A DNA stretch of 32,000 bases from Geotalea daltonii FRC-32 (GCF_000022265.1 NC_011979.1:3690001-3722000), one strand, 5' to 3'. Numbered from the stretch's first letter, positions 1,613 to 26,873 are shown. Numbers and translations: made by a program. Notes: generated by a model not told the origin, from the letters alone.

Positions 1613-1626
1613 TTACCAATAAAAAT

Positions 1627-1653
1627 GGCGGTCAGGAAAACTTCCCGACCGCC
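1627..1653. terminator. Bidirectional intrinsic terminator hairpin between convergent genes
   Basis: GGCGGTC...GACCGCC stem. On the minus strand it is followed by ATTTTTATT, and on the plus strand by a weaker T-rich tract. It sits between the stop codons at 1612 and 1678. Confidence 0.6.
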
Positions 1654-1677
1654 AGATTATCTTTTAGCTGATTACGC

Positions 1678-3015: not shown

Positions 3016-3058
3016 TTATAAAGCACCTTTCAAACTGCAACAACAGCGGAAACAAACA

Positions 3059-3592: not shown

Positions 3593-3611
3593 AGGTCAAC
3601 CCCTTTTCTTA

Positions 3612-4439: not shown

Positions 4440-4482
4440 TGTTCATCCCCCTTGTATACTAGAAATTCATTGGTAGTCGGCA

Positions 4483-5643: not shown

Positions 5644-5779
5644 CTGCCGGCATGGATAATTTGTTCAAGGGAGAAATGATTTTAAAAGTCTGCAACCGCT
5701 GGTTCCCCAGCTCATCGCCACGATAAACCTAGCATAAATAATACAGCCGGTGCAACCAGATCCTGCCTAGAGATGGTTA

Positions 5780-7072: not shown

Positions 7073-7130
7073 GTTAACCTCCGGTTGCAGAAATCATTCT
7101 GGATTTGGTCATGTCGAGCAGTATCAGTTC

Positions 7131-7163
7131 AAAAAAAAAAGCCCCACCCTTATGGGCGGGGCT
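7131..7163 (-). terminator. Rho-independent terminator after the giant cytochrome gene
   Basis: The minus strand reads GCCCCGCCC-ATAA-GGGTGGGGC followed by T10, 26 nt after the stop codon at 7189. Confidence 0.85.
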
Positions 7164-7188
7164 GAAGAACAATTAACTGACCCGGTGG

Positions 7189-10100: not shown

Positions 10101-11772
10101 CGTCACCTGTAAAAGGTGCAGTCACCGTGATCGAGTTGCTGGTAACGCCCGAATAGCTAAGCGCTCCTGCAGTGGTGCCGTTAACAGCAGCGGCACGAGT
10201 GACGGTAACCGTGTAGGTCTTGGTTGTAGTGCCGTCTTGGGCAGTGACGACCGTGGTAATGGTGTTTGACCCGACCACAAGGGCTATGGGAGCGGATGCC
10301 GTACCGCTGGCAACGGTGGTGCCGTTCACTTTAACTGTTGCAGTCGCGTCCTCAACCGTGGGAGTCACTGTAATTGAGGCAACGGGGTTAGCGACCGAGG
10401 CCGTGTAGGATATGGTTCCGCTGGCAAAAGCAGGGCTCAAGGTACCGGAAGACAGCACCAGGTTGCTCAGATTTGCATTTGTTGAAGCAGCGGCCGCACG
10501 TGTAACGACAACGGTGTATGTCTTGGTGGTTGTGCCATCTTGTGCAGTAACGACAGTTGTTATGGTGTTTGCGCCCACACTCAGTGCAATCGGGCCGGAA
10601 GCCGTACCACTGTTGACTGCAGTGCCGTTTACGGTGGTGGTGGCGGTGGTATCAGCCTCGGTGGGTGTTACTGTAATGGAGGAAACGGAGTTTGCTACCG
10701 AGGCGGTGTATGAGGTAGTTGCACTGGAGAAAGCAGGTGACAGCGTACCGCTGGACAGAACAAGATTACTCAGATCTGCATTTGAGGAGCCTGCTCGGGT
10801 AACAACCACTGTGTAGGTTTTGGTCGTAACGCCATCTTGGGCTGTTACGACAGTTGTGATCGTATTGGAGCCGACTGCAAGGGAAATGGGGCCGGAAGCA
10901 GTACCACTGTTGACAGCAACTCCATTAACAGTTGTCGTAGCCGTCGTGTCCGCCTCTGTCGGCGTAACGGTAATAGACGAGACGGAATTGGCGACAGAAG
11001 CGGTATAGGAGGTGGTCGTGCTACTGAAGGTAGGCGTCAATGTCCCAGACGAGAGCACTAAATTGCTAAGGTTGGCATTATTGGAAGCCGCGACAACCTC
11101 ATTAACAATCAAAACACCAGAAGTTCCTGTTCCGGCCGTATCAGCTGTAGATCCCCAGTATACCCGCTTAGCAGTTGATGTACCCGCTGTCGCTCGAACA
11201 CGGATGCCGAGCTTGGCACCGACAGGAACAGTCGCAGATTGTCCTGTCAATGACAGAGTGACTGTTGAATCTCCTACCGATGCCACCGCCGATGTCACTT
11301 CAGTGCCGGTGAAATCTGTTTTTGTCCCGCTCGAAGTCACATAAAATAACCTGACACCGGCAGTCCATCCACCAGACCCACTGTCGCGAAGCCTTACTTT
11401 AAAGGAGGTGCCTGTTACCGTGGTGGCAACAGCATATGCAGAATTAAAATACGCCTCCACAATAGTGCCTGCACCGGAAACAGTATGGACAGCACGCTGA
11501 CTGGCGCAAGCAAAAGCGGATGTATCCATTAGGGTTGTAACAGCCCCGGTATTATTTGTTCCGCATGCACTCGAGTCGGTCAAAACTCCGGTTGCGACCG
11601 TGGTCCCTGAATTGACCTGAAGATTATAGGTCACTGAAGCGGCCATGATTTCATGTGGCTTATACCACCCCTCATACATGAACACCGACAGGGTCAAAGT
11701 AAACAGCACCGTCAATGCCACCTTTGCCCACAGATTCAATCCTCGGATCTTCTTAGCGATAACCTTACCCAT
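7189..11772 (-). CDS. Giant membrane-anchored multiheme c-type cytochrome (~20 heme motifs) fused to three cadherin-like beta-sandwich repeats and an FN3-like segment
   Basis: 1527-aa ORF with SD AAGGGG upstream. The N-terminal basic plus hydrophobic anchor spans aa 1-33. Three ~100-aa repeats of the form '[38 protein letters not shown]...[10 protein letters not shown]' span aa 232-526. There are 16 CXXCH motifs between aa 657 and 1430, plus CX5CH (aa 778), CX4CH (aa 901), CX3CH (aa 1006) and CX3CH (aa 1119). Confidence 0.9.
10195..11079 (-). repeat. Three tandem ~300-bp coding repeats (cadherin-like domains) inside the cytochrome gene
   Basis: The protein repeat period is 99-101 aa (L235, L334, L435). 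The same periodicity shows in the antisense shadow ORFs at 10220, 10412 and 10820, which have near-identical translations. Confidence 0.85.
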
Positions 11773-12322
11773 AATCTCTACCCCTTAGTCAAGTAGTAAT
11801 CAAAATATATTAAAAGAAGCCTTTTCATCCGCGCTTGTCTTTAAATAATAAAATTCTAGGAGCTAATGAATGCAAAAACAGTACCCATAATCTAGACAGT
11901 AACCCTCCCATTAAAGTACAGCACCAAGCAAGGTCTGAAAACGGCTGGTTTAAAACAATAATTTTCTGGCTATCACGAGGTTTGCGTGGATATTTTTTTA
12001 TACGAATATGTGCCCCCGAGTAAATTCAACAGGTTATCCCAATGCCGTATCCACTCCCCCCCTTTCAATTTTGCCGGCAGCGCAAGATCCATTACGTTGT
12101 AAAACGGACGCCGATAGTCATTTGACCATTGATGCAATAGCGAGGAACCAAAGTCGAAATTGCCCGGAACCTTATATACATTATTAGCAATTGTCAAGAT
12201 ACATGTCTTACTGATCTTTTACGCCGCAGTTCAAAAGCATGACCCCGAGCCCAAAATTGTTGTTTAGCGTTGTTTAGTCTGTTAGATTACCTCCATATCC
12301 ATTTTGATTGGAGACCCACTAT

Positions 12323-13246
12323 ATGGTCCACGGAATCTTCAGCAGGCATTATTTATTTCTGCTATTCATCCTGCTAATACTTGCGATGTCTTCGATGGCA
12401 GGCTGCCGGGAGCGGAGCAAGAGGCCGATGATGCGCATCGGCTATATGAATTGCAATAACGAGCAGGAGACAATGGCACGTTTTCAGCCCCTTACCCGTT
12501 ATCTCTCGGAAAAGCTCAATGTTGATTTCGTGGCCGTCCCGGTTGATACCCATGATTTCGAAAAGCGATTCCGCGATGGCGAATTTGCCTTCACCCATAC
12601 GAACTCCCTACTCTATATAATTCTCCGTGAGAACTACCAACTGCAAATTATTGCCTCCGACAAGCGCGGCAATTTCGGCTCCCGTACCGGCGGCGCCATT
12701 ATCGCCCGCAAAGGGAGCGGCATAAACAAGCTGTCCGACATCCGCGGCAAAAGGATGGTCTTTGGGCCGATGCTGGCCCCAACCGGCTACCTTGCCGAGT
12801 ACGACCTGATGCTGCGGTCAGGCATCGACCCGGAGAAAGATCTCGCCTTTTACGCCATCCCTTCAGGTTCATACAAACACGAAAAACTGGTTTACGGGGT
12901 GCTTTTCGGGCAGTATGACGTTGGTGCTGCCCCTCTGCTGGATCTTGAGGTTATGGCACGGGAAGGGAAAATATCCCCCGATGATTTTGTCATTATTGGC
13001 CAGACACCCCTCATCCCATACTGCACTTTCGGAGCAGCAACCAAGACCGATCCTGAGCTTGTCGCAAGGTTCCGCCAAGCGCTACTCGAACTGAAACCGA
13101 CCGATACCGTGGAAATCAACGGCGAGCAGGTCAAGGTGCTGAAGGCTGCCTGGGCCGATGGATATGAGCAGCTGCTTGACAAGGACTATGACACGATTCG
13201 CGACATGGCCCGCCGTGTGAATATGCCCCCCTATCAAAAATACTGA
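12323..13246 (+). CDS. PhnD-family periplasmic substrate-binding protein (phosphonate/phosphite-type fold), lipoprotein-like N-terminus
   Basis: PhnD-like pattern: 'RIGYM...LTRYLSEKLNVDF...' and 'GGAIIARKGSGINKLSDIRGKRMVFGPMLAPTGYL...YDVGAAP'. ATG at 12323 is preferred over TTG at 12308 because GGAG at 12309-12312 then sits ~10 nt upstream. 'SSMAGC' is a lipobox-like signal. Confidence 0.7.
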   Translation: MVHGIFSRHYLFLLFILLILAMSSMAGCRERSKRPMMRIGYMNCNNEQETMARFQPLTRYLSEKLNVDFVAVPVDTHDFEKRFRDGEFAFTHTNSLLYIILRENYQLQIIASDKRGNFGSRTGGAIIARKGSGINKLSDIRGKRMVFGPMLAPTGYLAEYDLMLRSGIDPEKDLAFYAIPSGSYKHEKLVYGVLFGQYDVGAAPLLDLEVMAREGKISPDDFVIIGQTPLIPYCTFGAATKTDPELVARFRQALLELKPTDTVEINGEQVKVLKAAWADGYEQLLDKDYDTIRDMARRVNMPPYQKY

Positions 13247-13253
13247 GGCTCGT

Positions 13254-13796
13254 GTGTTTAAAGACCGATTCGATAAGTTGCTCTGGCTGTTACTGTTCAT
13301 GGTATTTGCGGCCCTGGCCATGCTGATTGGCAGGCATACCTCATCCGGTAAAACAAACGCCCCAGCCGTCGCCACCTCAAAAGCAATGGAAAGGGAGATG
13401 GCTTTCCAGGCACGAGTCACCCTGCTGCAAAAACTATATGCTCCCGTGGAGGACCTGCGCCTGCGTGGTGACATGCAGGGAGCCCTCCTGCGACTGGATG
13501 AGCTCAACCGTTCCTACCCGGGTGAAGCCCACGGTTATATAATGAAAGGTCAGATCCTCCATCAGGCAGGGGCAATAGAAGAAGCCGTTTCCAGTTATGT
13601 CCAGGGCATAAAATTAAGCGGCAACTACATTGACCGTAAAAATCCCCTGTCAAGACGAGATGACGTAAAACGTCTTGTCGAGGAAGGACAGCAGATAATC
13701 AGGAGAGCCAGGGCTAACCCGGACAACATTTCCCTGGCCGCTGCAGTTAAAAATATCAATTACCTTAGAAGCCGCCTTGCAGGGGGATGTGAGTAA
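13254..13796 (+). CDS. Membrane-anchored TPR-like protein
   Basis: 180-aa ORF with a GTG start. N-terminal TM 'LLWLLLFMVFAALAMLI'. TPR-like helix pairs 'AHGYIMKGQILHQAGAIEEAVSSYVQGIKL'. Only 7 nt after the upstream stop. Confidence 0.5.
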   Translation: MFKDRFDKLLWLLLFMVFAALAMLIGRHTSSGKTNAPAVATSKAMEREMAFQARVTLLQKLYAPVEDLRLRGDMQGALLRLDELNRSYPGEAHGYIMKGQILHQAGAIEEAVSSYVQGIKLSGNYIDRKNPLSRRDDVKRLVEEGQQIIRRARANPDNISLAAAVKNINYLRSRLAGGCE

Positions 13797-13798
13797 GA

Positions 13799-14863
13799 AT
13801 GAATCTGAAAGACCGGCATTTCTGGATCATTGTTGTTACCGGTGCTTTGATGGGGACTTTCGGAGTGCTGCTCTCCGTCTGGGGTAATCCCGAAAACTCC
13901 GGCATCTGTGTTTCATGCTTTATCGAGAACAGTGTGGGGGCATTGGGTTTCCACGACAACTCACGCATGCAGTACCTGCGTCCTGAACTGGTCGGTTTTG
14001 TCTTGGGCGCCATGTTGAGCGCCGCCGCTTTCAGGGAGTTTCGTGCCCATGGGGGCAACAATCCGCTGCCACGGTTGATTGCCGGGATATTCCTGATAAT
14101 CGGTTGCGCCGTCTTTATAGGCTGCCCTATCAAGCTGTTTCTCCGTTTGACAGCCGGGGACCTCACTGCTTTGGCTGGAGTTGCCGGCCTGGTTGCAGGT
14201 GTCTGGATCGGTCTCAAGGGATTGGCCAATGGTGTAGAATTGGGGAGTTCCGGAAAGCAAACCGGCAGCAGCGGTCTGCTTATCCCTGCTTTTTTTTGCA
14301 TCTTGCTGCTGTTTATGATATTCCCGCCGGCATTCATCCTCTCTTCAGGCACAGGAAGCGCAGCACAATATGCACCAATGGCCGTTTCCCTTGGCGTCGG
14401 TCTGTTGCTCGGAGCCTTTGCCCAGCGAAGCAGATTCTGCATCACCGGTAGTGTCCGCGACGCTATTCTAATGGGTTTCAGGTCCCATATGCCATGGGGA
14501 TTCTTGGCCTTCGTTGCTGCAGGAACTGTCACCAGCATCAGCTCCGGCAGATTTCATCCCGGTATGTTCGGACAACCGGGAGCCCATCTGGACCATCTAT
14601 GGAGTTTTCTCGGAATGCTCTTGGCAGGCTGGATATCGGTGCTGATCGGCGGCTGCCCGTTCCGACAGCTGATAAAATCAGGTGAAGGAGACGCAGATGC
14701 GGGTCTGGTGGTCGTTGGAATGCTTATCGGCGGTGCCGTCGTACAATCATGGACACTGGCAGGAACCGCCGCCGGTGTTCCTTTTTACGGTAAAGTGGCA
14801 GTTCTCGCCGGCTTCATATTTATTCTGCTGACATGCTTGCTGAGCCGCGAGCGTCAAGACTGA
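13799..14863 (+). CDS. yedE: YedE/YeeE-family sulfur/selenium-compound transporter
   Basis: 354-aa polytopic protein. The N-terminal signature is 'WGNPENSGICVSCF', and the second-half conserved Cys lies in 'SRFCITGS'. The ATG is 2 nt after the upstream stop. Confidence 0.75.
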   Translation: MNLKDRHFWIIVVTGALMGTFGVLLSVWGNPENSGICVSCFIENSVGALGFHDNSRMQYLRPELVGFVLGAMLSAAAFREFRAHGGNNPLPRLIAGIFLIIGCAVFIGCPIKLFLRLTAGDLTALAGVAGLVAGVWIGLKGLANGVELGSSGKQTGSSGLLIPAFFCILLLFMIFPPAFILSSGTGSAAQYAPMAVSLGVGLLLGAFAQRSRFCITGSVRDAILMGFRSHMPWGFLAFVAAGTVTSISSGRFHPGMFGQPGAHLDHLWSFLGMLLAGWISVLIGGCPFRQLIKSGEGDADAGLVVVGMLIGGAVVQSWTLAGTAAGVPFYGKVAVLAGFIFILLTCLLSRERQD

Positions 14864-14874
14864 GCAAAAAACGG

Positions 14875-15762
14875 TTAACGGCAACAGGGATCAGGTTCAT
14901 CCCAGGAACCGCCGGCAAAATATCCCCTGCCACGGCACCCGCCAAAGCAACCCGACAGCTCTAAGCACCCGTCGCACCCTTTGGGCGTCTTCATCAAGTT
15001 CTCCCGCAAGCTTCTTTTTGCCATCGAATGCACAATTGATGACAGTGTCATCTCCTTGAGATTCCCCAAGGCCACGGGAAGAGACGGACAGGGGTAAACA
15101 TCACCGCTGGCCGTGATGCTAAGCATGGTATTGGCTGCCTGGCAACTCCCTTCCGGAAAATGAAGGGTCGGGAAGAACACCCGCCACAAAAAAGGGTCGT
15201 GGATAACAACCTGCATTTTGTCAGGCTTGACCACCTCTTTTATTCCATCGGAGAGTTTCTGCCGCTGTTGCCTGTCCAAGGCAAAATAGCCTCCACCACA
15301 GGAGAGCCGTTGCATGGGCAATACCAGTGATAAACCATGATTGGCGCAGAACGAGTATATCTCCGGCAGCTGATGGTAATTATCAGCTGCAACGGCAAAA
15401 GAGATCCCTGGTACCGGTACGCCGGCAGTTCGGAAATCATGGCGATTCACTCGGGCAAGGTCTGCTGATTCTTCAATAGCCACATAGAGATTTCTAAGGC
15501 GGTAATGGCAGATCTGATCCAGAAGTGCAGGAGTAATGGTCGCCAGGGGAATGGTCAAAGAAAGGGCAATCTGAACCGGGGAAAATAATTCCAGTAATGG
15601 CAGGTAAATGGCGCCGGGAGTGGCCTTCGTAGCGGTGAGATCGAGACTGAGTATCTTCAGCACTATGATCTGCTCACCGACACTGAGACAATCATTATCA
15701 GCAGCGTCGGCAGGCAAATCCCAGTAAATCCTGATGGGAGTTTTCAGCTCACTGAAATTCAT
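14875..15762 (-). CDS. SPASM-domain protein lacking the radical SAM CX3CX2C cluster (GeoRSP-type SPASM partner)
   Basis: A full SPASM cysteine pattern is present: 'C-X17-C' (ending 'GDVYPC') followed by 'CDGCLELSGCFGGC' (CX2CX5CX3C) and a C-terminal 'DPCC'. There is no CX3CX2C anywhere after Met27. The start at 15762 forms an ATGA overlap with the upstream stop. The longer 321-aa ORF-track form overlaps the upstream gene out of frame. Confidence 0.75.
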   Translation of the reverse strand: MNFSELKTPIRIYWDLPADAADNDCLSVGEQIIVLKILSLDLTATKATPGAIYLPLLELFSPVQIALSLTIPLATITPALLDQICHYRLRNLYVAIEESADLARVNRHDFRTAGVPVPGISFAVAADNYHQLPEIYSFCANHGLSLVLPMQRLSCGGGYFALDRQQRQKLSDGIKEVVKPDKMQVVIHDPFLWRVFFPTLHFPEGSCQAANTMLSITASGDVYPCPSLPVALGNLKEMTLSSIVHSMAKRSLRENLMKTPKGCDGCLELSGCFGGCRGRGYFAGGSWDEPDPCCR

Positions 15763-16757
15763 GGCTGCCAGCAGTGGGGATCGGGACTGTTGAAATCGCC
15801 GGTCAACGCAAGGGCACGGGCACTGCAGCCTCCAAGGCATTCATTGTAGTCGCTGCAGCCGACACATTTACCTGTCGCCACTTTGTTGCGCAGCTTTTCC
15901 AGAATCGATGAGCTCTTCCATAGCTCCCGAAGGTCGTCGGCAAGGATATTGCCGATGACGATGGGTATGAAACCGCAGGGGGTAATGTCGCCATTGGACT
16001 TTATGTTCAGGGACAGCTTGCCGCAGACACTCCCCTTGACCATGTTGTTGGTGTCATGCATTCCCAATGAGGCGATTATCGGATCATCCAGGGAGATGTC
16101 CAGCTTACGCCCCCGCTGTTTTTCCATTATCGCCTCTGCGTAAAATGACTGCCATTCCTCAGGTGTCAGGTCCAGATCATCCCTGTTGGAATAACCGAGG
16201 CCCGAACATTTGAAATTGTGGAAGTTGAGCTGCTCCACATGGAGTTTTTCCGCCAAATCTATGAGCGGAGCAACGTCACGGTGGTTCAACTTGCAGATAA
16301 CTGTGGAGATGGAAGTCTTTATTCCTGCCTCCTGCAAGTATGCCAAAGCATTTACGGCACGCCCGTGGCTGCCGGACACACCACGGAAATGGTCATGGAT
16401 GGCAGGAACGTGGCTGTCGATACTGATGCCCACCTTGCTGAACCCGGCCTCTTTCAATTCCAGGGCTTTCTTGCGGTCGATGAGGTAACCATTGCTGTTC
16501 ATGGATACTCGCATGCCGCTTTGGGCAGCACAAGAAGCGATCGTCGCCAAGTCCTGACGCAGCAGCGGCTCGCCACCGCCGAAATTGACCGACATGACAC
16601 CAGCCGTGGCAACTTTCTCAAGACACTGGCATAACATACTGCAGTCTATTTCTTTCATGGCATCATTGCGGCTATAGCAGTGGCGGCAGGCGAAGTTGCA
16701 GTTATTGTTGACAGCCCAGTTTATCGTAAGCGGTGCCTTAAGCTGAATTTCACCCAT
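15759..16757 (-). CDS. Radical SAM/SPASM-domain maturase
   Basis: 'CNFACRHC' is a CX3CX2C motif, followed by 'GGGEPLL'. The SPASM pattern is 'C-X15-C' (ending 'GDITPC') followed by 'CVGCSDYNECLGGC' (CX2CX5CX3C) and 'DPHC'. The start at 16757 (MGEIQL) overlaps the PqqD-like stop as ATGGGTGA. Confidence 0.85.
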   Translation of the reverse strand: MGEIQLKAPLTINWAVNNNCNFACRHCYSRNDAMKEIDCSMLCQCLEKVATAGVMSVNFGGGEPLLRQDLATIASCAAQSGMRVSMNSNGYLIDRKKALELKEAGFSKVGISIDSHVPAIHDHFRGVSGSHGRAVNALAYLQEAGIKTSISTVICKLNHRDVAPLIDLAEKLHVEQLNFHNFKCSGLGYSNRDDLDLTPEEWQSFYAEAIMEKQRGRKLDISLDDPIIASLGMHDTNNMVKGSVCGKLSLNIKSNGDITPCGFIPIVIGNILADDLRELWKSSSILEKLRNKVATGKCVGCSDYNECLGGCSARALALTGDFNSPDPHCWQP

Positions 16758-17106
16758 AGAAGATAAACCCTTTCTGTTCCAGATCCTGCAAAAACGAATG
16801 CACATCCTGAGACAGTACTGCTCGTTCTACCTCAAAGTCAGCCAGTAAGGAATCGATGATCTCCTCGACGGTCCTGCCGTCGCAGATCTTCCATATTTCG
16901 GTGCCCATCAGGTTCAGAGTAATCATGATGCCGTCCGAGAAGAGCAGCGAGGTGCCCACTTCGGTCACGTCATTCCCCTTCTCCAGCCCTGCGCTCGCTT
17001 CCAAAAGAGAGTCCTCTTCCTCGCGCCACATCACATCAGGGTTTCTAAATACCTTTTTCAACAACACGCCCTCCTTTATGGAATGTTGTATCAGCGACCA
17101 ATGCAT
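16750..17106 (-). CDS. PqqD-family protein (RiPP-recognition-element-like chaperone)
   Basis: 'ITLNLMGTEIWKICDGRTVEEIIDSLLADFEV...VLSQDVHSFLQDLEQKGFI' fits the PqqD/RRE pattern. The start is uncertain. ATG 17106 gives 118 aa. The 151-aa form starting at 17205 would overlap the ResB-like gene. Confidence 0.7.
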   Translation of the reverse strand: MHWSLIQHSIKEGVLLKKVFRNPDVMWREEEDSLLEASAGLEKGNDVTEVGTSLLFSDGIMITLNLMGTEIWKICDGRTVEEIIDSLLADFEVERAVLSQDVHSFLQDLEQKGFIFYG

Positions 17107-17131
17107 GAAAGGCAAAGGGCCGACAGGGAAT

Positions 17132-18061
17132 TTATCTTTGTGCAAACCTTCGCCAAAAAGCAAGAACTGCCCCAAGACACATGATTGCGAAGCCGCAGAA
17201 AACAACAGGCCGGCCCGGATCTTTCACTATCTGAATGCCTGCGAAGGAGCGGCCATTTCCGTCGGTTCCAGTCTGTGTATGATAGAAACAGAGTCCCTGC
17301 CAGGAAAACGGTGCGTTGATTTCCGATGTCCCCGAGACAGGGGGCTTGTCATCACTGGATAGCTGAAGATCGACCCACATCCTCTTGAGCTGGGGATTTT
17401 TATAGGAGACAAGCTTGAAAGCATAAGGGAAATCGAGAGGCAGCGTGCTGTTACCGGAGGTGTCGGCTGTGCCGACGATCCCGTCCCCTTTGTGAACCAC
17501 AAGTACCAGCCTGAGATTTTTGGGCTCAAAGTCCGTGACCGAGACACGATAACCGGGCAGTTCAAAACTTTCACCGGTGGCAAGGGTGAACAGGCCGTAT
17601 TTTTCGTTACCCTGCAGGACACCGACGCGGACCGGCACCGGGTAATACTGGCGATTTATCTGCTTTACCCATAGCCGCATGTGGAATGGGGCATCCCTCT
17701 TCAGGTCCCAGCGAAAAGCCTCGTCTACAAAGGTGCCTTCATAAACGTTCACCGTGGCCACATAACCAAAGGAGGTGATCACACAGCCCAAAAGAGTAAC
17801 CAGAACTCCTCCATGAAGAACGAGGGTCGATCCGGCTAACGAGCGCCACCTTTTCATGCTGCAGCATATAAGGTTCAATGCCATCAGGGCCAGCAGACTG
17901 ACAAACAGTGGGCTTGAGTAAATCGCCCGTGATTCGGTGAAGGTTCCTGGTATTGCAACGATGGTCAATATACCGAAAAGGGCAATTGCCAGTTCCGTTG
18001 AGGAGAGACCATTGATAATTCGTGATTTCAGACCCGGTGGCAGCAAGACAGAACCTTTCAT
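17132..18061 (-). CDS. ResB-like cytochrome c biogenesis family protein (short, orphan paralogue)
   Basis: The ResB-type N-terminus is 'LSSTELAIALFGILTIVAIPGTF...SSPLFVSLLALMALNLICCS'. There is a second TM segment, a ~200-aa soluble region and a C-terminal TM. No CcsA partner is adjacent. The start is ATG 18061 or TTG 18067. Confidence 0.7.
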   Translation of the reverse strand: MKGSVLLPPGLKSRIINGLSSTELAIALFGILTIVAIPGTFTESRAIYSSPLFVSLLALMALNLICCSMKRWRSLAGSTLVLHGGVLVTLLGCVITSFGYVATVNVYEGTFVDEAFRWDLKRDAPFHMRLWVKQINRQYYPVPVRVGVLQGNEKYGLFTLATGESFELPGYRVSVTDFEPKNLRLVLVVHKGDGIVGTADTSGNSTLPLDFPYAFKLVSYKNPQLKRMWVDLQLSSDDKPPVSGTSEINAPFSWQGLCFYHTQTGTDGNGRSFAGIQIVKDPGRPVVFCGFAIMCLGAVLAFWRRFAQR

Positions 18062-18080
18062 CCGCAAAGCAGACTGTGCA

Positions 18081-18659
18081 TCAGATTAACTTCTTTGCCT
18101 TGAGATATTCCCGGGCCAGCTTGTTCGGCTTGTCCTCGGCCTTTACCATTTTGACCATTCTGGAATAGTTGTTGTCATTGACAATCCCGGTGAGCTTGTT
18201 GATCAATTTCGGTAGAGCCGGCAGATTGCCTAAAATCTCGAGAGAAATAACCGGTGCAACCAGCTGGCTGGAGCCATTGCCGGTCAAGGTGCCCAGTGGC
18301 TCGAGCCAGACAAGGTTGAATGTCTTGCGATGCTCTCTTTTTACAATCTCGAATGCAGTTTTGGCGTTGGCTTCCCTAGGTCGCTTGACCAGCTCCAGCC
18401 CGTGATCTGTGTTTTCAATGATCAATCCCACCTGGCCGTGCCTGACCGCATTGTATATTTCGGCCCCGGTCTTGAAGGTAAGGATTTTGACGGAGGTGCC
18501 GGTCCTCTCGGTGACAAGGACGGAGATCATTTCAGCAAGCAATTGATCATTGGGGGAGTTGGTGACACCGATATAGAGCACCTTGCCGACGCAAGCCCTG
18601 GCTTGGGTTGCCATAACGGCCAGAAGGGTAAAGATCACCAGCACAACCAACCTCTTCAT
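18081..18659 (-). CDS. Secreted OpuAC-like (glycine-betaine-type) substrate-binding domain protein
   Basis: Signal peptide 'MKRLVVLVIFTLLAVMATQARA'. 'QLLAEMISVLVTERTGTSVKI...EIYNAVRHGQVGLIIE' resembles the ABC glycine-betaine SBP fold. GAGGAGGA lies 6 nt upstream of ATG 18659. Confidence 0.5.
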   Translation of the reverse strand: MKRLVVLVIFTLLAVMATQARACVGKVLYIGVTNSPNDQLLAEMISVLVTERTGTSVKILTFKTGAEIYNAVRHGQVGLIIENTDHGLELVKRPREANAKTAFEIVKREHRKTFNLVWLEPLGTLTGNGSSQLVAPVISLEILGNLPALPKLINKLTGIVNDNNYSRMVKMVKAEDKPNKLAREYLKAKKLI

Positions 18660-18680
18660 AAAACATCCTCCTCGCATCAG

Positions 18681-19379
18681 CTATTTTGCCGTTAATACCA
18701 CGTCGATTGCAATATCCGATTGGGATGATACTGCAGACAGCCGTTTTTCCAGCTTCATTCCAGGACCAGTGGGAAAGGTTACGGCGGCGCCGATAAAATA
18801 TTCGCCGGGAGGCAGATAAAGGGTGTACAGGCCGGTTTCCTCGGTCCAGCCGGAGACATAATCGGGCAGCTGGCTCACCTCCCTCATGGCGTTGACCAGC
18901 ACATACGCCGAGCTGACAGGCGCCCCCTCACCGTCTACCACCCTTCCACGGACCTTGACCATATCCTCTCTGGCTTTTTGTTTGCCCTTCGCCACCTGGC
19001 GTATATCGGCAACGATGAATTGCCGTTCAACGAGCCCTTCATCGGCATCAATGGCCACAGGTTCACCTGAATGCTGGGCCGCAGGTGACAGTGGACCATA
19101 CTTGCCATCCTGGCGCACCCTTGCCACAGCCCAATATCTTTTGCCTGCAGGCAACTGGATGGTGTAGCTGCCCTCCTTATCGGATGGTCCGGTAATGAAA
19201 TCAGCGGGGCGCCTGGTATTGGTACTGTCGTAGATGAAAACCTCGGCACCGCAGACTCCCTTGCCGGCCATATCGACAATTTTCCCGCGGAAGATGAATG
19301 TTTGCGCAGCCATATCTTCACCATAACTGAAAGTGACCATGAACAACAAAAGTAAAATTGCGAGTGCTGATTTTCTCAT
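18681..19379 (-). CDS. Secreted protein with two carboxypeptidase-regulatory-like (prealbumin-fold) domains
   Basis: A signal peptide is present. Two copies of the motif occur: 'FRGKIVDMAGKGVCGAEVFIY...GSYTIQLPAG' and 'VRGRVVDGEGAPVSSAYVLV...GLYTLYLPPGEY'. The start overlaps the upstream stop by 4 nt. Confidence 0.6.
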   Translation of the reverse strand: MRKSALAILLLLFMVTFSYGEDMAAQTFIFRGKIVDMAGKGVCGAEVFIYDSTNTRRPADFITGPSDKEGSYTIQLPAGKRYWAVARVRQDGKYGPLSPAAQHSGEPVAIDADEGLVERQFIVADIRQVAKGKQKAREDMVKVRGRVVDGEGAPVSSAYVLVNAMREVSQLPDYVSGWTEETGLYTLYLPPGEYFIGAAVTFPTGPGMKLEKRLSAVSSQSDIAIDVVLTAK

Positions 19380-21856
19380 TGCACTATATTCCCTGTCTTG
19401 ACCCGCTTTGAGAGAAATGGCTCAAAAATTACCACGCCTATGCCAGGCTCATTACGCCCGTCAAAAATGGTGTTAGCCGGGATACCCTCCCCCCACCAAT
19501 TTCCGGCGGCATCCACATTTTCGTCGTTAAAGTCGCCGATCCTGACGTTGTAGCCGGTGTTGTCAAACAGGTTGCTGCCGTTGATTTTCAGACCACTGCC
19601 TTTTTCTCTGACAAATACACCCGTTTCATTCCTGGTTATGTCGCTCGCCTCAATGCTCCCATTGCCACGATAGGAACGGATACCTATGGAATTATCCCTG
19701 AAAAGGCACCGTTTAATGGATACCGGGCCGCTTCTGAAACGCATGCCGCCATTATTGTTGCGGAAAATGCTGTCGGCAAGGGACAGTTTGGTAAAATGGC
19801 TGTGCAGGCCCCATTGGGCATACTCGAAAACCGCATGGGAGATGACACTGCCGTTTGCATGCTCCAGAAGCACCTCGTCCCACGTACCCGGCAATTTTTT
19901 ACCTGCGGAGGTGAAAATGACTTCGCGGCCTTTTTCACCTCTGGCAACGATTTTACCGTTGACTGTCATTCCTGAACCTTCGGCAAACAAGACTTTAGTT
20001 CCAGCCAAAAGAGTAAGAGTACTCGCCGTGGGAATCTGGAGCCTGCGATTTGCGATAATCTCGCCTTGCCATACGGTCGGAGTAGCCACGCTGGCCAGCG
20101 GCCAGACGAAGGGCACCGGTTGTGTCAATGGATTATCGGAAATGATGCGGCCTCGGGAAGGATGGTTTCTGCGATCAAAGATCACCCTGGCAGGCTCATC
20201 AGTCCCCCACCAGTTGTCCGGTGCTTCCACATCATTTGTACCTTCCTGATCAATTGCCCAGAGTCCGTTGCCCATGAAGCTGTTGCCGGTAAGGGTTCCG
20301 GTAAAGGAGAGCAACCCTAGTCCCCGTTCACCATTGGCGGCAATCTGGTTCCCCTTGATCTCGGCTCTGGTTTCCTGCAGATTCATCCCGTTGAGGCCGT
20401 TGTTCGCCACAAAATTTCCGAAAAGTTCTATATTGTCGGAATTTTTCAGGGATAAGCCTGTTTCAGCATTATTGGAGACAACGTTACGGTTAAACCTGCC
20501 GGAAAAAGTGTCAGCTACCATGAGGCCAAACCTGTTACCGTCAATCAGATTCTCTTCCATGACGGTAACCCCTTCCCTTAGTCTCAGCCCATCCCTCCTG
20601 TTGCCAATGAACTCGTTTTGCCTGACCTGCAGGTTACATCTGAAGAAGTTTCCCCCTATGTAATTGCTGCTGATCAGATTGCCTGACATATCGATAGTAG
20701 AGTTCCTGCCCTGGATGCCACTCTTGTTTTCATACAACCGGTTGCCATGGAGCACAACCAGGGATTCCTGAAATTGAATAGCGCGATAGTTTCCCTTCAG
20801 CACTGAATGCGTCACCGCCACATTGGAAAAATGAAAATGGAGCCCTCGATAGGCGCCCTCTATCTGGCAATACTCGATCAGGTTCTGGACTCCATCGCTG
20901 CCCATGATGTTTATAGCGTCCCAGTCAGTATCTGACCTGCCTTTTTCGGCCGAACGAAAGATAATCGGTTCCTTGGCACTCCCCTTGGCCAAAATACTGC
21001 CTTGTATCATCAGTCCATTTTCGCCAATCCCATCACCATTTGAATCTCTTCTGCTGAATTCGATGACAGTACCCGGAAGTATCGCCAGCCTGGCTCCTTC
21101 AGGCACTCGGATGATCCCTTTGACGATGATGTGCCCTTGCCAGATTGTGCTGCCCAAAAGCACCTCATCCTGGTAGATTCTACTGACAGGCAGGTCTTTT
21201 GTAGTGCTGAGGGGAATCTGAGCTGCCGGCTGCTGGAGATCTGCTGCATGGAAATCCTTTTTCCTGTTGTTGCCAATGGTGCTATTATGCTGCACGATCC
21301 TGGCACCGCTGAAAGCGTAGACCCCGAAATCATTGTCTGCAACAGTAGTGGATTTGAGGACCACAGAACTTTTTGGCCCGATTGCCGATACTCCATACCG
21401 GTTCCCATTGATTTTGCAGCCGTCCACTGTTGCCGTTCCCTCAATGACATGCAAGGCAGTTTCCGCATTGTCTATACTGCATCCACTGAGGAAAGCCCTG
21501 CCTCCATCCACGATCAAACCAGCCCATGAAGCATTTTTGGCTTCGCCAGGCGAAGAAAATTTGACCGGGAAAGTCCTTGTGCCCTCCACTTTCAATGTTC
21601 CACGAACGGTGATCTCGGTTAAGGGAGATATGTATTCAGGATCAGTCTTGGTAGTATCGGCGGGAATTATCCTTACAACAGTGCCTGGTTTGAGGGTCAG
21701 GGAGATACCTGACGGAACAATCACATCTTCGTTGACGGTGACTTCTCCCTGCCATGTGGTATCGGCAGTTAATAGAGTTGCAAACGCAAAAGCAGGAAAT
21801 AGCAGGCACAGGGCAAAGGCAACCAGGAAGGTAGTTTTTTTCATGGGCAGAGTCAT
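19376..21856 (-). CDS. Secreted right-handed parallel beta-helix repeat protein (NosD/CASH-like), three helix modules
   Basis: 826-aa ORF with signal peptide 'MKKTTFLVAFALCLLFPAFAFA'. Three cap modules begin 'TTWQGEV', 'STIWQGHI' and 'PTVWQGEI'. Each is followed by many PbH1-like 'N...G' repeats. Confidence 0.7.
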   Translation of the reverse strand: MTLPMKKTTFLVAFALCLLFPAFAFATLLTADTTWQGEVTVNEDVIVPSGISLTLKPGTVVRIIPADTTKTDPEYISPLTEITVRGTLKVEGTRTFPVKFSSPGEAKNASWAGLIVDGGRAFLSGCSIDNAETALHVIEGTATVDGCKINGNRYGVSAIGPKSSVVLKSTTVADNDFGVYAFSGARIVQHNSTIGNNRKKDFHAADLQQPAAQIPLSTTKDLPVSRIYQDEVLLGSTIWQGHIIVKGIIRVPEGARLAILPGTVIEFSRRDSNGDGIGENGLMIQGSILAKGSAKEPIIFRSAEKGRSDTDWDAINIMGSDGVQNLIEYCQIEGAYRGLHFHFSNVAVTHSVLKGNYRAIQFQESLVVLHGNRLYENKSGIQGRNSTIDMSGNLISSNYIGGNFFRCNLQVRQNEFIGNRRDGLRLREGVTVMEENLIDGNRFGLMVADTFSGRFNRNVVSNNAETGLSLKNSDNIELFGNFVANNGLNGMNLQETRAEIKGNQIAANGERGLGLLSFTGTLTGNSFMGNGLWAIDQEGTNDVEAPDNWWGTDEPARVIFDRRNHPSRGRIISDNPLTQPVPFVWPLASVATPTVWQGEIIANRRLQIPTASTLTLLAGTKVLFAEGSGMTVNGKIVARGEKGREVIFTSAGKKLPGTWDEVLLEHANGSVISHAVFEYAQWGLHSHFTKLSLADSIFRNNNGGMRFRSGPVSIKRCLFRDNSIGIRSYRGNGSIEASDITRNETGVFVREKGSGLKINGSNLFDNTGYNVRIGDFNDENVDAAGNWWGEGIPANTIFDGRNEPGIGVVIFEPFLSKRVKTGNIVQ

Positions 21857-21916: not shown

Positions 21917-21945
21917 AATATACTCCAATCAGAGCACAAAGGCAA
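21917..21945 (-). promoter_or_regulatory. Putative sigma70 promoter for the beta-helix/GeoRSP operon
   Basis: The minus strand reads TTGCCT, 17 nt, TATATT, about 60 nt upstream of ATG 21856 and downstream of the tRNA-Pro terminator. Confidence 0.4.
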
Positions 21946-21982
21946 AAGATGATTGTGATGGGGCACCAACAACTTCTGCGGA

Positions 21983-22022
21983 CAAAGAAAAAGGGTCTCC
22001 GGAAAAATTTTCGGAAACCCTT
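21983..22022 (-). terminator. Rho-independent terminator after tRNA-Pro
   Basis: The minus strand has an 11-bp stem (one G-U pair), AAGGGTTTCCG-(9 nt)-CGGAGACCCTT, followed by TTTCTTTG. Confidence 0.75.
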
Positions 22023-22029
22023 CTCAATA

Positions 22030-22106
22030 TGGTCGGTGCGACTGGATTCGAACCAGCGACCACTAGACCCCCAGTCTAGTGCGCTACCAGGCTGCGCTAC
22101 GCACCG
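22030..22106 (-). tRNA. tRNA-Pro (anticodon GGG)
   Basis: Hand-folded cloverleaf: acceptor CGGTGCG/CGCACCG, anticodon arm CTAGA-CTGGGGG-TCTAG, T-arm GCTGG-TTCGAAT-CCAGT, encoded CCA. It starts 5 nt after the merR-family stop codon. Confidence 0.85.
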
Positions 22107-26724: not shown

Positions 26725-26873
26725 ACATACTCCTTTTGTTGTTTATTTGCCGGATCCGCAAGGGGAGACGTTTCCTCACGGTTCACGGACTTAAATCGGT
26801 CGGCAGGCGATGGACGGTGGTCGCCGGTGTTTTTAAACTATCAACCGCCGACAGCCGACCAGCGACCGCCTTA
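26725..26873 (-). other. Unusually long GC-rich structured spacer between rpmI and rplT
   Basis: 149 nt. The transcript strand contains GTCGGCGGT-(15 nt)-ACCGGCGAC enclosed by GGTCGGC...GCCGACC. GGAG precedes the rplT ATG. Confidence 0.4.

What the first reader, a model, noticed from the sequence alone, without database searches (positions are those of the whole stretch)
14875..21856. Seven-gene operon couples the radical SAM/SPASM cassette to an orphan ResB-like heme-handling protein and three secreted scaffold proteins
Seen in the sequence:
- The operon sits between a terminator plus candidate promoter (21917-22022) and the convergent yedE stop.
- Seven minus-strand genes are packed with 4-nt overlaps or gaps of 25 nt or less.
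- In order they encode a triple beta-helix protein, a tandem prealbumin-like-domain protein, an OpuAC-like binding protein, a ResB-like protein, a PqqD-like protein, an rSAM/SPASM enzyme and a SPASM-only protein.

Established knowledge: ResB/CcsB exports and chaperones heme for System II cytochrome c synthesis. Several radical SAM/SPASM-type enzymes act on tetrapyrroles (AhbD, NirJ).

Inference: the cytoplasmic rSAM pair may modify heme or a heme precursor, or a secreted protein before export. The ResB-like protein would then deliver the product to the periplasmic components. I know of no described system with this composition.

The stop codons of the last gene and of yedE are only 11 bp apart with no terminator hairpin between them.
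Basis: inference. Interest (0 to 1): 0.78.

Follow-up and report, generated by a model that had tools for sequence, protein, structure and literature searches.

The report
Extended GeoRSP radical-SAM envelope system
The seven genes are a real, strongly conserved unit, but they are only part of a larger uncharacterised system (10-13 genes in relatives, including the neighbouring selenium/sulfur-type transporter genes), and what it makes is still unknown, most likely a modified short peptide rather than modified haem.

Summary
Seven tightly packed minus-strand genes encode a NosD-like beta-helix protein, a tandem CarboxypepD_reg protein, a one-lobe OpuAC-like protein, a CcsB/ResB-like protein and the GeoRSP trio (PqqD, rSAM/SPASM, SPASM-only).

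Comparison with 77 related loci from Geobacterales and Nitrospirota shows the order is conserved in about 54 of 58 informative loci.

The unit is larger than described. The convergent PhnD-like binding protein, a Cys-terminated TPR protein and YedE (12308-14863) belong to it in 47 of 51 loci. Most relatives also carry an ArsP-type permease plus cupin, or an RcnA-type transporter plus a small NosD-like protein, between the ResB-like and PqqD genes. This window has lost that slot.

The ResB-like protein is a genuine short CcsB homologue that keeps the transmembrane haem-ligand histidine. It has no CcsA partner in any locus.

Giant multihaem cytochromes often flank the cluster. I also found a widespread, unannotated 19-20-residue peptide gene ending in VHPC. 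It heads the operon in many relatives and is the best candidate substrate, but it is absent from this window.

The haem-modification reading is only partly supported. The function remains unknown.

The parts
19376..21856 (-). g1: secreted 826-aa protein with three NosD-like right-handed beta-helix modules. Modules 2 and 3 carry an invariant Cys-x9-His-x-His / His-x-His motif (C330, H340, H342; H685, H687).
   Evidence: Pfam Beta_helix 108 bits and NosD 76 bits. Conservation over 37 and 18 orthologues. Present in 55 of 58 informative loci. No PDB sequence match, even with a profile.
18681..19379 (-). g2: secreted 232-aa protein with two CarboxypepD_reg (transthyretin-like) domains and a conserved HSG histidine (H103).
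   Evidence: Pfam PF13620. Conservation. Present in 54 of 58 loci. Weak similarity to TIGR04134, 'radical SAM-associated putative lipoprotein'.
18081..18659 (-). g3: exported one-lobe OpuBC/OpuCC-like binding protein of about 192 aa. A signal peptide ends in A-x-A and is followed by a nearly invariant Cys (C29 in the long ORF; invariant in the 55 locus orthologues, 90% or more in the homologue alignment). Lobe 2 of the binding-protein fold is missing.
   Evidence: Pfam OpuAC. A PDB profile matches chain residues 17-132 and 229-289 only. AF2 pLDDT 89.6. Foldseek TMq 0.73-0.78 against TMt about 0.55. It is the only periplasmic partner kept in the minimal locus L004.
17132..18067 (-). g4: short (about 309 aa) CcsB/ResB homologue. 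It has 3+1 transmembrane helices and a compact periplasmic beta-sandwich. C69 and H85 are invariant, and H85 aligns with the transmembrane histidine of CcsBA (7s9y, 25vk) that I take, from memory of the CcsBA work, to be the haem ligand TM-His1.
   Evidence: Pfam ResB 42 bits. Profile against PDB hits 25vk_A and 7s9y. AF2 pLDDT 92. Foldseek 7s9y E = 3.9e-13. Conservation. Present in 54 of 58 loci but absent in L007, L010 and L043.
16750..17067 (-). g5: GeoRSP PqqD-family peptide chaperone. The likely start is GTG/TTG at 17061-17067, after AAAGGAGGG.
   Evidence: TIGR04302 190 bits against cut-off 100. Start analysis.
15759..16757 (-). g6: GeoRSP radical SAM/SPASM enzyme with the CxxxCxxC motif CNFACRHC. 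The likely start is ATG 16757.
   Evidence: TIGR04303 690 bits against 400. The next best hits are NirJ2 at 184, AhbD at 181, MftC at 147 and PqqE at 126.
14875..15762 (-). g7: GeoRSP SPASM-only protein. It has no CxxxCxxC motif but seven invariant C-terminal cysteines. The likely start is ATG 15762.
   Evidence: TIGR04304 535 bits against 300. 318 homologues of about 295 aa. Invariant columns.
13799..14863 (+). YedE-family putative selenium/sulfur transporter with six invariant cysteines. It is part of the conserved system, not a boundary.
   Evidence: TIGR04112 391 bits against 200. Present in 47 of 51 informative loci. In Nitrospirota it lies inside the operon, between the ResB-like gene and the permease. 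Conservation.
13254..13796 (+). Membrane-anchored 180-aa TPR-like protein with an invariant cysteine as the penultimate residue (AG-x-C-x-COOH).
   Evidence: Weak TPR hits. 46 orthologues with C179 invariant. Present in 47 of 51 loci.
12308..13246 (+). PhnD-like (oxyanion-type) periplasmic lipoprotein with invariant C49, C239, H97 and H191.
   Evidence: Pfam Phosphonate-bd 164 bits. Weak similarity to the putative selenate binding-protein model and to the tetrathionate sensor TtrS. Conservation. Present in 47 of 51 loci.
21917..22025 (-). Upstream boundary: the intrinsic terminator of tRNA-Pro (about 21985-22025) and a weak sigma-70-like site (21945-21917).
   Evidence: Hairpin -20 kcal/mol, z = -4.1. 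The promoter-like site matches 9 of 12 positions, no better than shuffled sequence gives. tRNA-Pro lies at 22030-22106.
7189..11772 (-). Possible client: a 1527-aa multihaem cytochrome with 16 CXXCH motifs and three cadherin-like domains, divergent from the binding-protein gene.
   Evidence: Pfam. Cytochromes of 830-1740 aa with 11-38 CXXCH motifs flank the cluster in at least 13 related loci of both phyla. Weak homologues lie beside clusters or peptide genes elsewhere.

Best explanation
The seven genes are the cytoplasmic and periplasmic halves of one conserved, envelope-spanning system. Here it is in a reduced Geotalea-type form. The system also includes the convergent binding-protein, TPR and YedE genes.

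Shown:
- The synteny is conserved in two phyla.
- The trio meets the GeoRSP family definitions.
- g4 is a short CcsB homologue that keeps the transmembrane histidine.
- g3 is a one-lobe binding protein.
- g1 has Cys/His motifs in its NosD-like modules.

Inferred mechanism:
1. In the cytoplasm the PqqD-like protein presents a short peptide to the rSAM/SPASM enzyme and its SPASM-only partner. The best candidate is the 19-20-residue peptide MKK..Y..P(K/R)(I/V)VG.A.VHPC. In many relatives it is encoded at the head of the operon, between the CPD and Opu genes, or beside giant cytochromes. It is not encoded in this window.
2. The two enzymes modify the peptide, probably at or near the C-terminal His-Pro-Cys.
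3. The product, alone or carrying a thiol-loving ligand (a metal, sulfur/selenium, or possibly haem), crosses the membrane. It would use the cluster's membrane proteins: the CcsB-like protein and YedE here, plus an ArsP-type, RcnA-type or MFS transporter in relatives.
4. In the periplasm it is received by the beta-helix protein, the transthyretin-like protein and the one-lobe binding protein.
5. These serve large outer-surface multihaem cytochromes.
For: - Conserved order BH-CPD-Opu-ResB-[slot]-PqqD-rSAM-SPASM in 54-56 of 58 loci, and the binding protein, TPR and YedE in 47 of 51 loci. The rearrangements differ between Geobacterales and Nitrospirota.
- Equivalog-level hits to TIGR04302, TIGR04303 and TIGR04304.
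- There is no intergenic room for another precursor gene.
- The peptide family is real. There are 23 copies in 19 of 77 loci and 125 more in 120 metagenome loci. The AAAGGAGG Shine-Dalgarno site is seen upstream in the 23 copies from the 77 loci. Variability by codon position in those copies is 0.22, 0.24 and 0.62, and most copies are followed by a strong hairpin.
- The peptide gene sits directly upstream of BH, or between CPD and Opu, or next to CPD-like genes and giant cytochromes.
- In the slot, interchangeable Cys/His-rich transporters occur: an ArsP-type with CxC motifs plus a five-His cupin, or a NicO/RcnA type plus a small NosD-like protein, or an MFS.
- g4 is CcsB-like with the histidine retained.
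- Cytochromes are adjacent.
- The minimal locus L004 keeps only Opu plus the trio.
Against: - The window has no copy of the peptide, even at up to 3 mismatches. Most related loci show none within 10 kb.
- The peptide lies more often beside cytochromes and CPD-like genes than beside visible GeoRSP genes. Its link to the rSAM trio is therefore by neighbourhood only.
- It could instead be a regulatory leader peptide.
- No experiment, expression data or literature exists for any component.
- This window lacks the slot transporter, so any export route here is guessed.
- ResB is missing in three otherwise complete loci.
- The roles of YedE, the binding protein and the TPR protein are inferred from family names and conserved cysteines only.
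Confidence: 0.4

Rival explanations
1. The rSAM/SPASM pair modifies haem or a tetrapyrrole precursor in the cytoplasm. The ResB-like protein exports the product to the periplasmic proteins.
For: - After its own family, the best hits of the rSAM enzyme are NirJ2 (184 bits), AhbD (181), NirJ and AhbC, ahead of MftC and PqqE.
- g4 is a CcsB homologue with the transmembrane histidine conserved.
- Giant multihaem cytochromes flank many clusters.
- In L166 and L179 the VHPC peptide gene lies directly upstream of an AhbD-like rSAM gene (452 bits). In L179 a HemE gene follows it.
Against: - The scores are far below the AhbD and NirJ cut-offs of 500.
- An equivalog PqqD peptide chaperone is unexplained by a tetrapyrrole substrate.
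- No CcsA/WWD partner is present in any of 197 loci. In System II that partner supplies the second transmembrane histidine and the external haem site (from my knowledge of System II, not tested here).
- ResB is absent in three complete loci.
- The conserved YedE, binding protein and TPR genes, and the metal-type transporters, are unexplained.
Confidence: 0.15
2. A periplasmic metal or chalcogen trafficking and metallocentre-assembly machine on the NosD/NosL model. A thiol-loving metal (Ni, Co, Cu or Zn) is exported by the slot transporter. Sulfur or selenium moves through the binding protein, the TPR protein and YedE. The NosD-like modules act as acceptor or insertase. The rSAM trio matures one of the cluster's own proteins, for example the one-lobe binding protein, rather than a free peptide.
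For: - Invariant CxC, CxC and His motifs in the permease. Five invariant histidines in the cupin. A Cys-x9-HxH motif in the NosD-like modules.
- A NicO/RcnA-type alternative with 138 bits to the nickel/cobalt efflux model.
- NikR lies beside the cluster in 8 loci.
- YedE scores above the TIGR04112 cut-off.
- There are invariant cysteines in the binding protein, at the C-terminal end of the TPR protein, and directly after the g3 signal peptide.
- The logic parallels the SAO system of Haft and Gwadz (bioRxiv 10.1101/2022.07.06.499078).
Against: - The window lacks the metal exporter and the cupin, yet keeps everything else.
- NosD similarity is at domain level only: TIGR04247 scores 29 bits against a cut-off of 300, and there is no PDB match.
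- No NosF, NosY, NosL or NosZ genes are present.
- No metalloprotein client has been identified.
- The metal cannot be named.
Confidence: 0.2
3. The VHPC peptide is a regulatory leader or arrest peptide that controls read-through of the hairpin that follows it. It is unrelated to the GeoRSP substrate, which is encoded elsewhere or is not a peptide.
For: - A strong hairpin begins a few to about 20 nt after the stop. The median free energy is -25 against -14 kcal/mol in controls, and many hairpins are followed by a run of T.
- 116 of 124 copies have a same-strand ORF starting within 450 nt downstream.
- Several copies can lie in one locus, each ahead of a secreted-protein gene.
- The peptide has a conserved Pro-Cys-stop end. 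The stop is TGA in 97 copies, TAA in 48 and TAG in none.
Against: - Conservation spans the whole 20 residues across two phyla.
- The gene also lies at the end of cytochrome operons, with gaps of 16-83 nt.
- RiPP precursor genes are also commonly followed by such hairpins (from my general knowledge, not tested here).
- No alternative antiterminator structure was sought.
Confidence: 0.15
4. Two unrelated modules, periplasmic genes g1-g4 and the GeoRSP trio g5-g7, lie side by side by chance or through shared genomic history, without functional coupling.
For: - In relatives the two halves are separated by 2.3-5.4 kb of other genes.
- L004 has the trio with only one periplasmic gene.
Against: - The linkage persists in two phyla despite different internal rearrangements and three different slot contents.
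- The g4 and g7 families are of equal size in the protein database: 325 and 318 clusters, although counted at different E-value cut-offs (1e-3 for g4, 1e-5 for g7).
Confidence: 0.03

Closest known systems
GeoRSP system (NCBIfam/TIGRFAMs TIGR04302, TIGR04303, TIGR04304)
   Same: g5, g6 and g7 score well above all three equivalog cut-offs and are adjacent in the defining order.
   Different: The family definition covers three genes only and gives no substrate or function. The 7-10 further conserved partners, and the candidate peptide, are not part of any description I could find.
Peptide-derived cofactor pathways with PqqD plus an rSAM/SPASM enzyme: PQQ (PqqA/D/E) and mycofactocin (MftA/B/C)
   Same: A PqqD-type chaperone next to an rSAM/SPASM enzyme. 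MftC and PqqE models hit g6 at 147 and 126 bits. From my knowledge of those pathways, both use short precursors and MftC acts on the C-terminal residues. The candidate substrate here is a 19-20-residue peptide with a conserved C-terminal end.
   Different: No precursor gene lies next to the chaperone. There is an extra SPASM-only paralogue. A large secreted and membrane module is attached, and the peptide ends in His-Pro-Cys. No chemistry has been shown.
System II cytochrome c synthase CcsBA / ResBC
   Same: g4 matches CcsB by sequence profile and by fold, and keeps the transmembrane histidine.
   Different: g4 is about 309 aa, with a shortened periplasmic domain. No CcsA/WWD partner is present in any locus. 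The window has a separate ResB plus CcsA pair at 3612-5643 beside its giant cytochrome.
NosDFY-NosL copper delivery for nitrous oxide reductase
   Same: Secreted right-handed beta-helix modules with the Pfam NosD signature, placed next to metal-type transporters.
   Different: TIGR04247 scores 29 bits against a cut-off of 300. No NosF, NosY, NosL or NosZ genes are present. There are three tandem modules. The protein has no PDB sequence match.
SAO locus of anaerobes (Haft and Gwadz, bioRxiv 10.1101/2022.07.06.499078)
   Same: It is also defined by comparative genomics only. It contains an ArsP-type efflux protein with a Cys-x-Cys motif (the relatives' permease hits SaoE at 87 bits). It also has secreted proteins that end in cysteine, and a proposed trafficking of thiol-loving metals linked to selenium.
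   Different: The SAO locus has no rSAM trio, CcsB-like or NosD-like proteins. Here there are no ABC transporter, MerB-like enzyme or selenocysteine codons.

Membership tests
GeoRSP system | PqqD-family protein above the TIGR04302 cut-off | tested here: met
   190 bits against 100
GeoRSP system | Radical SAM/SPASM protein above the TIGR04303 cut-off, with a CxxxCxxC motif | tested here: met
   690 bits against 400. The motif CNFACRHC is present in the translation
GeoRSP system | SPASM-domain protein without a radical SAM motif, above the TIGR04304 cut-off, adjacent to the other two | tested here: met
   535 bits against 300. There is no CxxxCxxC motif, and seven C-terminal cysteines are invariant. 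The three genes overlap
System II CcsB/ResB | Pfam ResB (PF05140) above the gathering score, and a CcsB fold | tested here: met
   42.1 bits against 24.6. Foldseek to 7s9y E = 3.9e-13
System II CcsB/ResB | Conserved transmembrane histidine (the one called TM-His1 in the CcsBA work) | tested here: met
   H85 is invariant in 53 and 34 orthologues. It aligns with the histidine in the matching transmembrane segment of 7s9y and 25vk. That this histidine is TM-His1 rests on my memory of the CcsBA work
System II CcsB/ResB | Fused or adjacent CcsA/ResC partner with a WWD domain | tested here: not met
   No homologue of the window's CcsA in any of 197 loci. None among the conserved families
System II CcsB/ResB | Full-length periplasmic domain | tested here: not met
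   About 309 aa. The Pfam match covers only the ends of the 486-position model. The periplasmic domain is about 180 residues
Haem-modifying rSAM enzymes (AhbD, NirJ) | Score above the equivalog cut-off | tested here: not met
   AhbD 181 against 500, NirJ2 184 against 500, NirJ 154 against 515
NosD (N2O reductase maturation) | TIGR04247 above the cut-off, with NosF/NosY/NosL/NosZ context | tested here: not met
   29 bits against 300. No such genes lie in the window or in the conserved families
OpuAC-type substrate-binding protein | Two-lobe fold that closes on a ligand, with ABC transporter partners | tested here: not met
   Only the parts matching chain residues 17-132 and 229-289 are present. 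Foldseek TMt is about 0.55. No ABC transporter genes are in the cluster
RiPP / peptide-derived cofactor cluster | Precursor peptide gene in the cluster | tested here: inconclusive
   None in the window. A candidate 19-20-residue peptide gene lies in 19 of 77 related loci, often as the first gene of the operon
RiPP / peptide-derived cofactor cluster | The enzyme modifies the peptide | not testable with these tools
   This needs co-expression and mass spectrometry
YedE family putative selenium transporter (TIGR04112) | Score above the equivalog cut-off | tested here: met
   391 bits against 200

The most novel reading that the evidence does not exclude
The GeoRSP enzymes join a tetrapyrrole or haem to the C-terminal His-Pro-Cys of the 20-residue peptide, or turn that peptide into a new thiol/imidazole redox or metal cofactor. 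The CcsA-less CcsB-like protein would export the conjugate. The beta-helix, transthyretin-like and one-lobe binding proteins would then load it onto giant extracellular multihaem cytochromes. This would be a previously unknown peptide-based cofactor or haem-handling pathway for extracellular electron transfer in Geobacterales and Thermodesulfovibrionia.
Probability: 0.12. Interest if true: 0.92.

Novelty: new variant of a known kind. Interest (0 to 1): 0.72.

Why it matters
- GeoRSP is a named but functionally blank radical SAM system.
- This work shows it is the cytoplasmic part of a 10-13-gene envelope-spanning system conserved in metal-reducing Geobacterales and subsurface Nitrospirota.
- The system contains a CcsA-less CcsB homologue, NosD-like modules and a YedE module, and it is repeatedly placed next to giant multihaem cytochromes.
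- That turns a vague 'hypothetical operon' into a testable problem.
- It also yields a concrete candidate substrate: a widespread, unannotated 20-residue peptide.
- Cultured hosts hold both the peptide gene and the cluster: Geobacter hydrogenophilus, Geobacter sp. AOG1 and Geomobilimonas luticola.
- If the product is a peptide-derived cofactor, a metallophore or a haem conjugate, it would bear on how these organisms build or service their extracellular electron-transfer machinery.

Tried and rejected
- **Literature.** Searches for GeoRSP, the TIGR numbers, YedE with NosD or radical SAM, and YedE with Geobacter found nothing relevant. The 2025 Haft and Tolstoy paper is not held.
- **Precursor gene inside the cluster.** The intergenic gaps are too small, and no families of 60 aa or more are conserved besides those listed.
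- **Selenocysteine reading of the peptide's TGA stop.** Rejected: there is no conserved read-through frame, and 48 of 145 copies end in TAA.
- **Riboswitch or other known RNA in the cluster.** None at Rfam gathering scores.
- **PDB relatives of the beta-helix protein.** None by phmmer or by profile.
- **NCBIfam model for the peptide.** None.
- **The window's own ResB plus CcsA pair, the WD40-like gene and the 177-aa gene as part of the system.** Rejected: no homologues lie in any related locus.
- **Gene-caller artefacts.** Families f11, f12.24 and .27 from my crude gene caller are antisense ORFs over real genes, and I dropped them.
- **Gap scan.** The backward scan for the cytochrome-to-peptide gap undercounts. 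The neighbour counts are the ones to use.

Full report
**1. The observation**

The window holds seven consecutive minus-strand ORFs at 14875-21856. The profile searches gave these assignments.

| Gene | Coordinates | Assignment |
|---|---|---|
| g1 | 19376-21856 | Right-handed beta-helix / NosD domains |
| g2 | 18681-19379 | Two CarboxypepD_reg domains |
| g3 | 18081-18677 | OpuAC-like |
| g4 | 17132-18067 | ResB-like |
| g5 | see text | GeoRSP PqqD, TIGR04302, 190 bits against 100 |
| g6 | see text | GeoRSP rSAM/SPASM, TIGR04303, 690 against 400 |
| g7 | see text | GeoRSP SPASM-only, TIGR04304, 535 against 300 |

The convergent gene at 13799-14863 is a YedE-family putative selenium transporter (TIGR04112, 391 against 200).

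The junctions were read directly:
- g1/g2 and g6/g7 overlap by ATGA, and g5/g6 overlap by 8 nt.
- g2-g3 are 21 nt apart and g3-g4 are 13-19 nt apart.
- The g4-g5 gap is about 65-70 nt if the start supported by a Shine-Dalgarno site and by the family model (17061-17067) is used.
- The longest ORFs of g5, g6 and g7 are over-extended at the 5' end. Homologues of g7 are about 295 aa.

The two convergent stops are 11 bp apart with no significant hairpin, whereas the hairpin after tRNA-Pro is significant, with z = -4.1. The promoter-like site is weak and no better than chance.

**2. Is the unit conserved?**

An alignment of g7 homologues retrieved 77 loci from species-representative genomes. They come from Geobacterales and from Nitrospirota/Thermodesulfovibrionia. 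The closest is Geotalea toluenoxydans at 97% identity, so the window is from a Geotalea-like organism.

I ran phmmer, hmmsearch and all-against-all clustering of the ORFs in these loci. Among 58 loci with at least 9 kb upstream of the SPASM-only gene, the counts were:

| Family | Loci of 58 |
|---|---|
| Beta-helix (BH) | 55 |
| CarboxypepD_reg (CPD) | 54 |
| OpuAC-like (Opu) | 54 |
| ResB-like | 54 |
| PqqD | 56 |
| rSAM | 56 |

The order is always the same. The g4-type ResB subfamily and the g7 family are also the same size in the protein database, 325 and 318 clusters. The two counts were taken at different E-value cut-offs, 1e-3 and 1e-5.

**3. The unit is larger than described**

Three more families are as conserved as the seven. 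They are the PhnD-like lipoprotein (window 12308-13246), a 180-aa membrane-anchored TPR-like protein (13254-13796) and YedE. Each is present in 47 of 51 informative loci.

- In Geobacterales they usually follow the SPASM-only gene on the same strand.
- In Nitrospirota they lie in the middle of the operon, which reads BH-CPD-Opu-ResB-SBP-TPR-YedE-permease-cupin-PqqD-rSAM-SPASM.
- In this window, and in its nearest non-Geotalea relative L002, the module is inverted and converges on g7.

So yedE is not a boundary.

Between the ResB-like and PqqD genes most relatives carry one of several gene sets:
- a 635-aa ArsP_1-type permease (similar to SO_0444 and SaoE) plus a 106-aa cupin, in 47 of 58 loci;
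- a NicO/RcnA-type transporter, a secreted TPR protein and a 329-aa single-module NosD-like protein, in 7-11 loci;
- an MFS transporter, in L002 and L077.

The window and L001 have nothing in this slot, only the gap of about 65-70 nt. An FmdE-like protein (16 loci) and NikR (8 loci) are occasional neighbours.

**4. What the parts look like**

*g4.* It is a true but short CcsB homologue.
- A profile of 34 orthologues hits CcsBA chains 25vk_A and 7s9y.
- The invariant H85 aligns with the histidine in the matching transmembrane segment of both chains. From memory of the CcsBA work I take this to be the haem ligand TM-His1; the residue numbering in 7s9y did not match exactly.
- The AF2 model (pLDDT 92) has 3+1 transmembrane helices and a compact beta-sandwich, and it matches 7s9y with E = 3.9e-13.
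- C69 is also invariant.
- No CcsA homologue occurs in any of the 197 loci examined.
- Three otherwise complete loci lack g4.

*g3.* It matches OpuBC/OpuCC/EgtU-type binding proteins only over the segments that form one lobe. The AF2 model has pLDDT 89.6, and Foldseek gives TMq 0.73-0.78 against TMt of about 0.55. Its signal peptide ends in A-x-A followed by a nearly invariant Cys. It is the only periplasmic partner kept in the minimal locus L004.

*g1.* It has three NosD-like modules. Modules 2 and 3, and the small NosD-like protein of relatives, share an invariant Cys-x9-His-x-His or His-x-His motif. It has no PDB sequence relative.

*Other conserved features*:
- The relatives' permease has two invariant CxC motifs and several histidines.
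- The cupin has five invariant histidines.
- YedE has six invariant cysteines.
- The PhnD-like protein has two invariant cysteines and two histidines.
- The TPR protein has an invariant cysteine as its penultimate residue.

*g6.* It has the canonical CxxxCxxC motif. After its own family its best matches are NirJ2 (184 bits), AhbD (181), MftC (147) and PqqE (126), all far below their cut-offs.

*g7.* It keeps the seven SPASM cysteines but has no radical SAM motif.

**5. Links to cytochromes**

Multihaem cytochromes of 830-1740 aa with 11-38 CXXCH motifs lie next to the cluster in at least 13 loci of both phyla. In Nitrospirota they lie directly downstream of the SPASM-only gene. In the window, a 1527-aa cytochrome with 16 CXXCH motifs is divergent from the PhnD-like gene. 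It is followed by its own ResB plus CcsA pair.

My estimate that this is roughly tenfold more than expected rests on my own rough knowledge of how rare such giant cytochromes are. It is suggestive only.

**6. A candidate substrate found in passing**

The genes are too tightly packed for a precursor gene inside the cluster. A search for conserved small ORFs found a 19-20-residue peptide, MKK..Y..P(K/R)(I/V)VG.A.VHPC, with 23 copies in 19 of the 77 loci.

Evidence that it is a real gene:
- Every one of those 23 copies has an AAAGGAGG Shine-Dalgarno site.
- Mean pairwise difference by codon position in those copies is 0.22, 0.24 and 0.62.
- Most copies are followed by a strong hairpin. The median free energy is -25 against -14 kcal/mol in controls.
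All 125 hits in 120 loci also had the N-terminal MKK..Y part, which was not searched for.

Where it lies:
- immediately upstream of the beta-helix gene, as the first gene of the operon;
- between the CPD and Opu genes inside the cluster (L091, L123, L127, L142);
- upstream of extra CPD-like genes;
- directly downstream of giant cytochromes, in 26 cases.

In L166 and L179 the peptide gene lies just upstream of an AhbD-like rSAM gene (452 bits). In L179 a HemE gene follows it.

Other points:
- No NCBIfam model exists for the peptide.
- It is absent from this window.
- The TGA stop is not a selenocysteine codon. There is no conserved read-through frame, and 48 of 145 copies use TAA.

**7. Interpretation**

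The co-occurrence claim is right, and the 'no described system' claim stands as far as the library shows.

The haem-specific mechanism is only partly supported.
- For it: the CcsB homology with the retained histidine, the AhbD/NirJ-like affinities of g6, and the cytochrome and haem-gene neighbourhoods.
- Against it: the equivalog PqqD chaperone, which in every characterised case known to me serves a peptide substrate; the lack of any CcsA; the dispensability of ResB in three loci; and the conserved YedE module and metal-type transporters, which a haem model leaves unexplained.

My preferred model (confidence about 0.4) has three steps:
- The trio modifies a short peptide, the VHPC peptide being the best candidate.
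- The product, possibly with a thiol-loving ligand, is passed across the membrane.
- It is used by the periplasmic proteins in the service of large multihaem cytochromes.

The rivals are the haem-modification model (0.15), a NosD-style metal or chalcogen assembly machine whose rSAM trio matures a cluster protein (0.2), the peptide being a regulatory leader unrelated to GeoRSP (0.15), and chance juxtaposition (0.03).

The closest comparative-genomics analogue in logic is the SAO locus of Haft and Gwadz, with its ArsP-type exporter and Cys-terminated secreted proteins.

**8. Verdict**

This is a real, conserved and uncharacterised system. Function remains to be shown by experiment.

Noticed in passing
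L003:1063-1122, L005:1422-1484, L023:1708-1770, L028:1597-1659 and 20247-20309, L045 (three copies), L014:5718-5780(-), and others; metagenome loci L078-L197: An unannotated gene family for a 19-20-residue peptide, MKK..Y..P(K/R)(I/V)VG.A.VHPC. The 23 copies in the 77 loci each have a strong Shine-Dalgarno site and show third-position variation typical of coding sequence, and most copies are followed by a hairpin. It lies at the head of GeoRSP-type operons, next to CPD-like genes and directly after giant multihaem cytochromes. It is not present in the window.
   Followed up: yes
L166:11167-11226 and 11277-12461; L179:1459-1515, 1460-2755 and 2896-3918: In two related metagenome contigs the same peptide gene lies immediately upstream of an AhbD-like 'haem b synthase' rSAM gene (452 bits, cut-off 500). 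In L179 a uroporphyrinogen decarboxylase (HemE) gene follows it.
   Followed up: partly
window 3612-11772 (-): A 1527-aa multihaem cytochrome (16 CXXCH motifs, three cadherin-like domains) is followed by a 430-aa WD40-like protein and by a second ResB-like (386 aa) plus CcsA-like (275 aa) pair. This looks like a dedicated System II synthase for that cytochrome. None of the accessory genes is conserved in the related loci.
   Followed up: partly
window 17061-17132; compare L023:6630-8924 and L045:6525-8931: The g4-g5 gap of about 65-70 nt is where relatives carry either an ArsP-type permease plus cupin, or NicO/RcnA plus TPR plus a small NosD-like protein, or an MFS transporter. The Geotalea lineage has lost this slot entirely.
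   Followed up: yes
window 13254-13796 (+): The TPR-like protein has an invariant cysteine as its penultimate residue (AG-x-C-x-COOH) in all 46 orthologues. This recalls the Cys-terminated secreted proteins found next to transporters in other comparative-genomics systems.
   Followed up: partly
L001:3841-8731: In the Geotalea toluenoxydans draft, the BH, CPD and ResB-like genes are each split over two or three frames. These are probably sequencing frameshifts in that assembly rather than pseudogenes.
   Followed up: no
window 143-3015: A LuxE-like acyl-protein synthetase gene and a B12-binding radical SAM gene lie at the left end of the window. B12-rSAM paralogues also occur near the cluster in 6 other loci.
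   Followed up: no
window 26730-26790 (-): Rfam match to the Deltaproteobacteria L20 ribosomal-protein leader (73.7 bits). It fits the infC-rpmI-rplT / pheST / ihfA housekeeping context upstream of the cluster.
   Followed up: no
L007, L030, L031, L040, L068, L069 (downstream of the SPASM-only gene): In several Nitrospirota loci the cluster is followed by one to three genes of 600-770 aa. By eye these look like membrane glycosyltransferases (PMT_2/GT39-like) with TPR repeats. No profile search was run on them. Similar-looking genes also follow some copies of the peptide gene.
   Followed up: no
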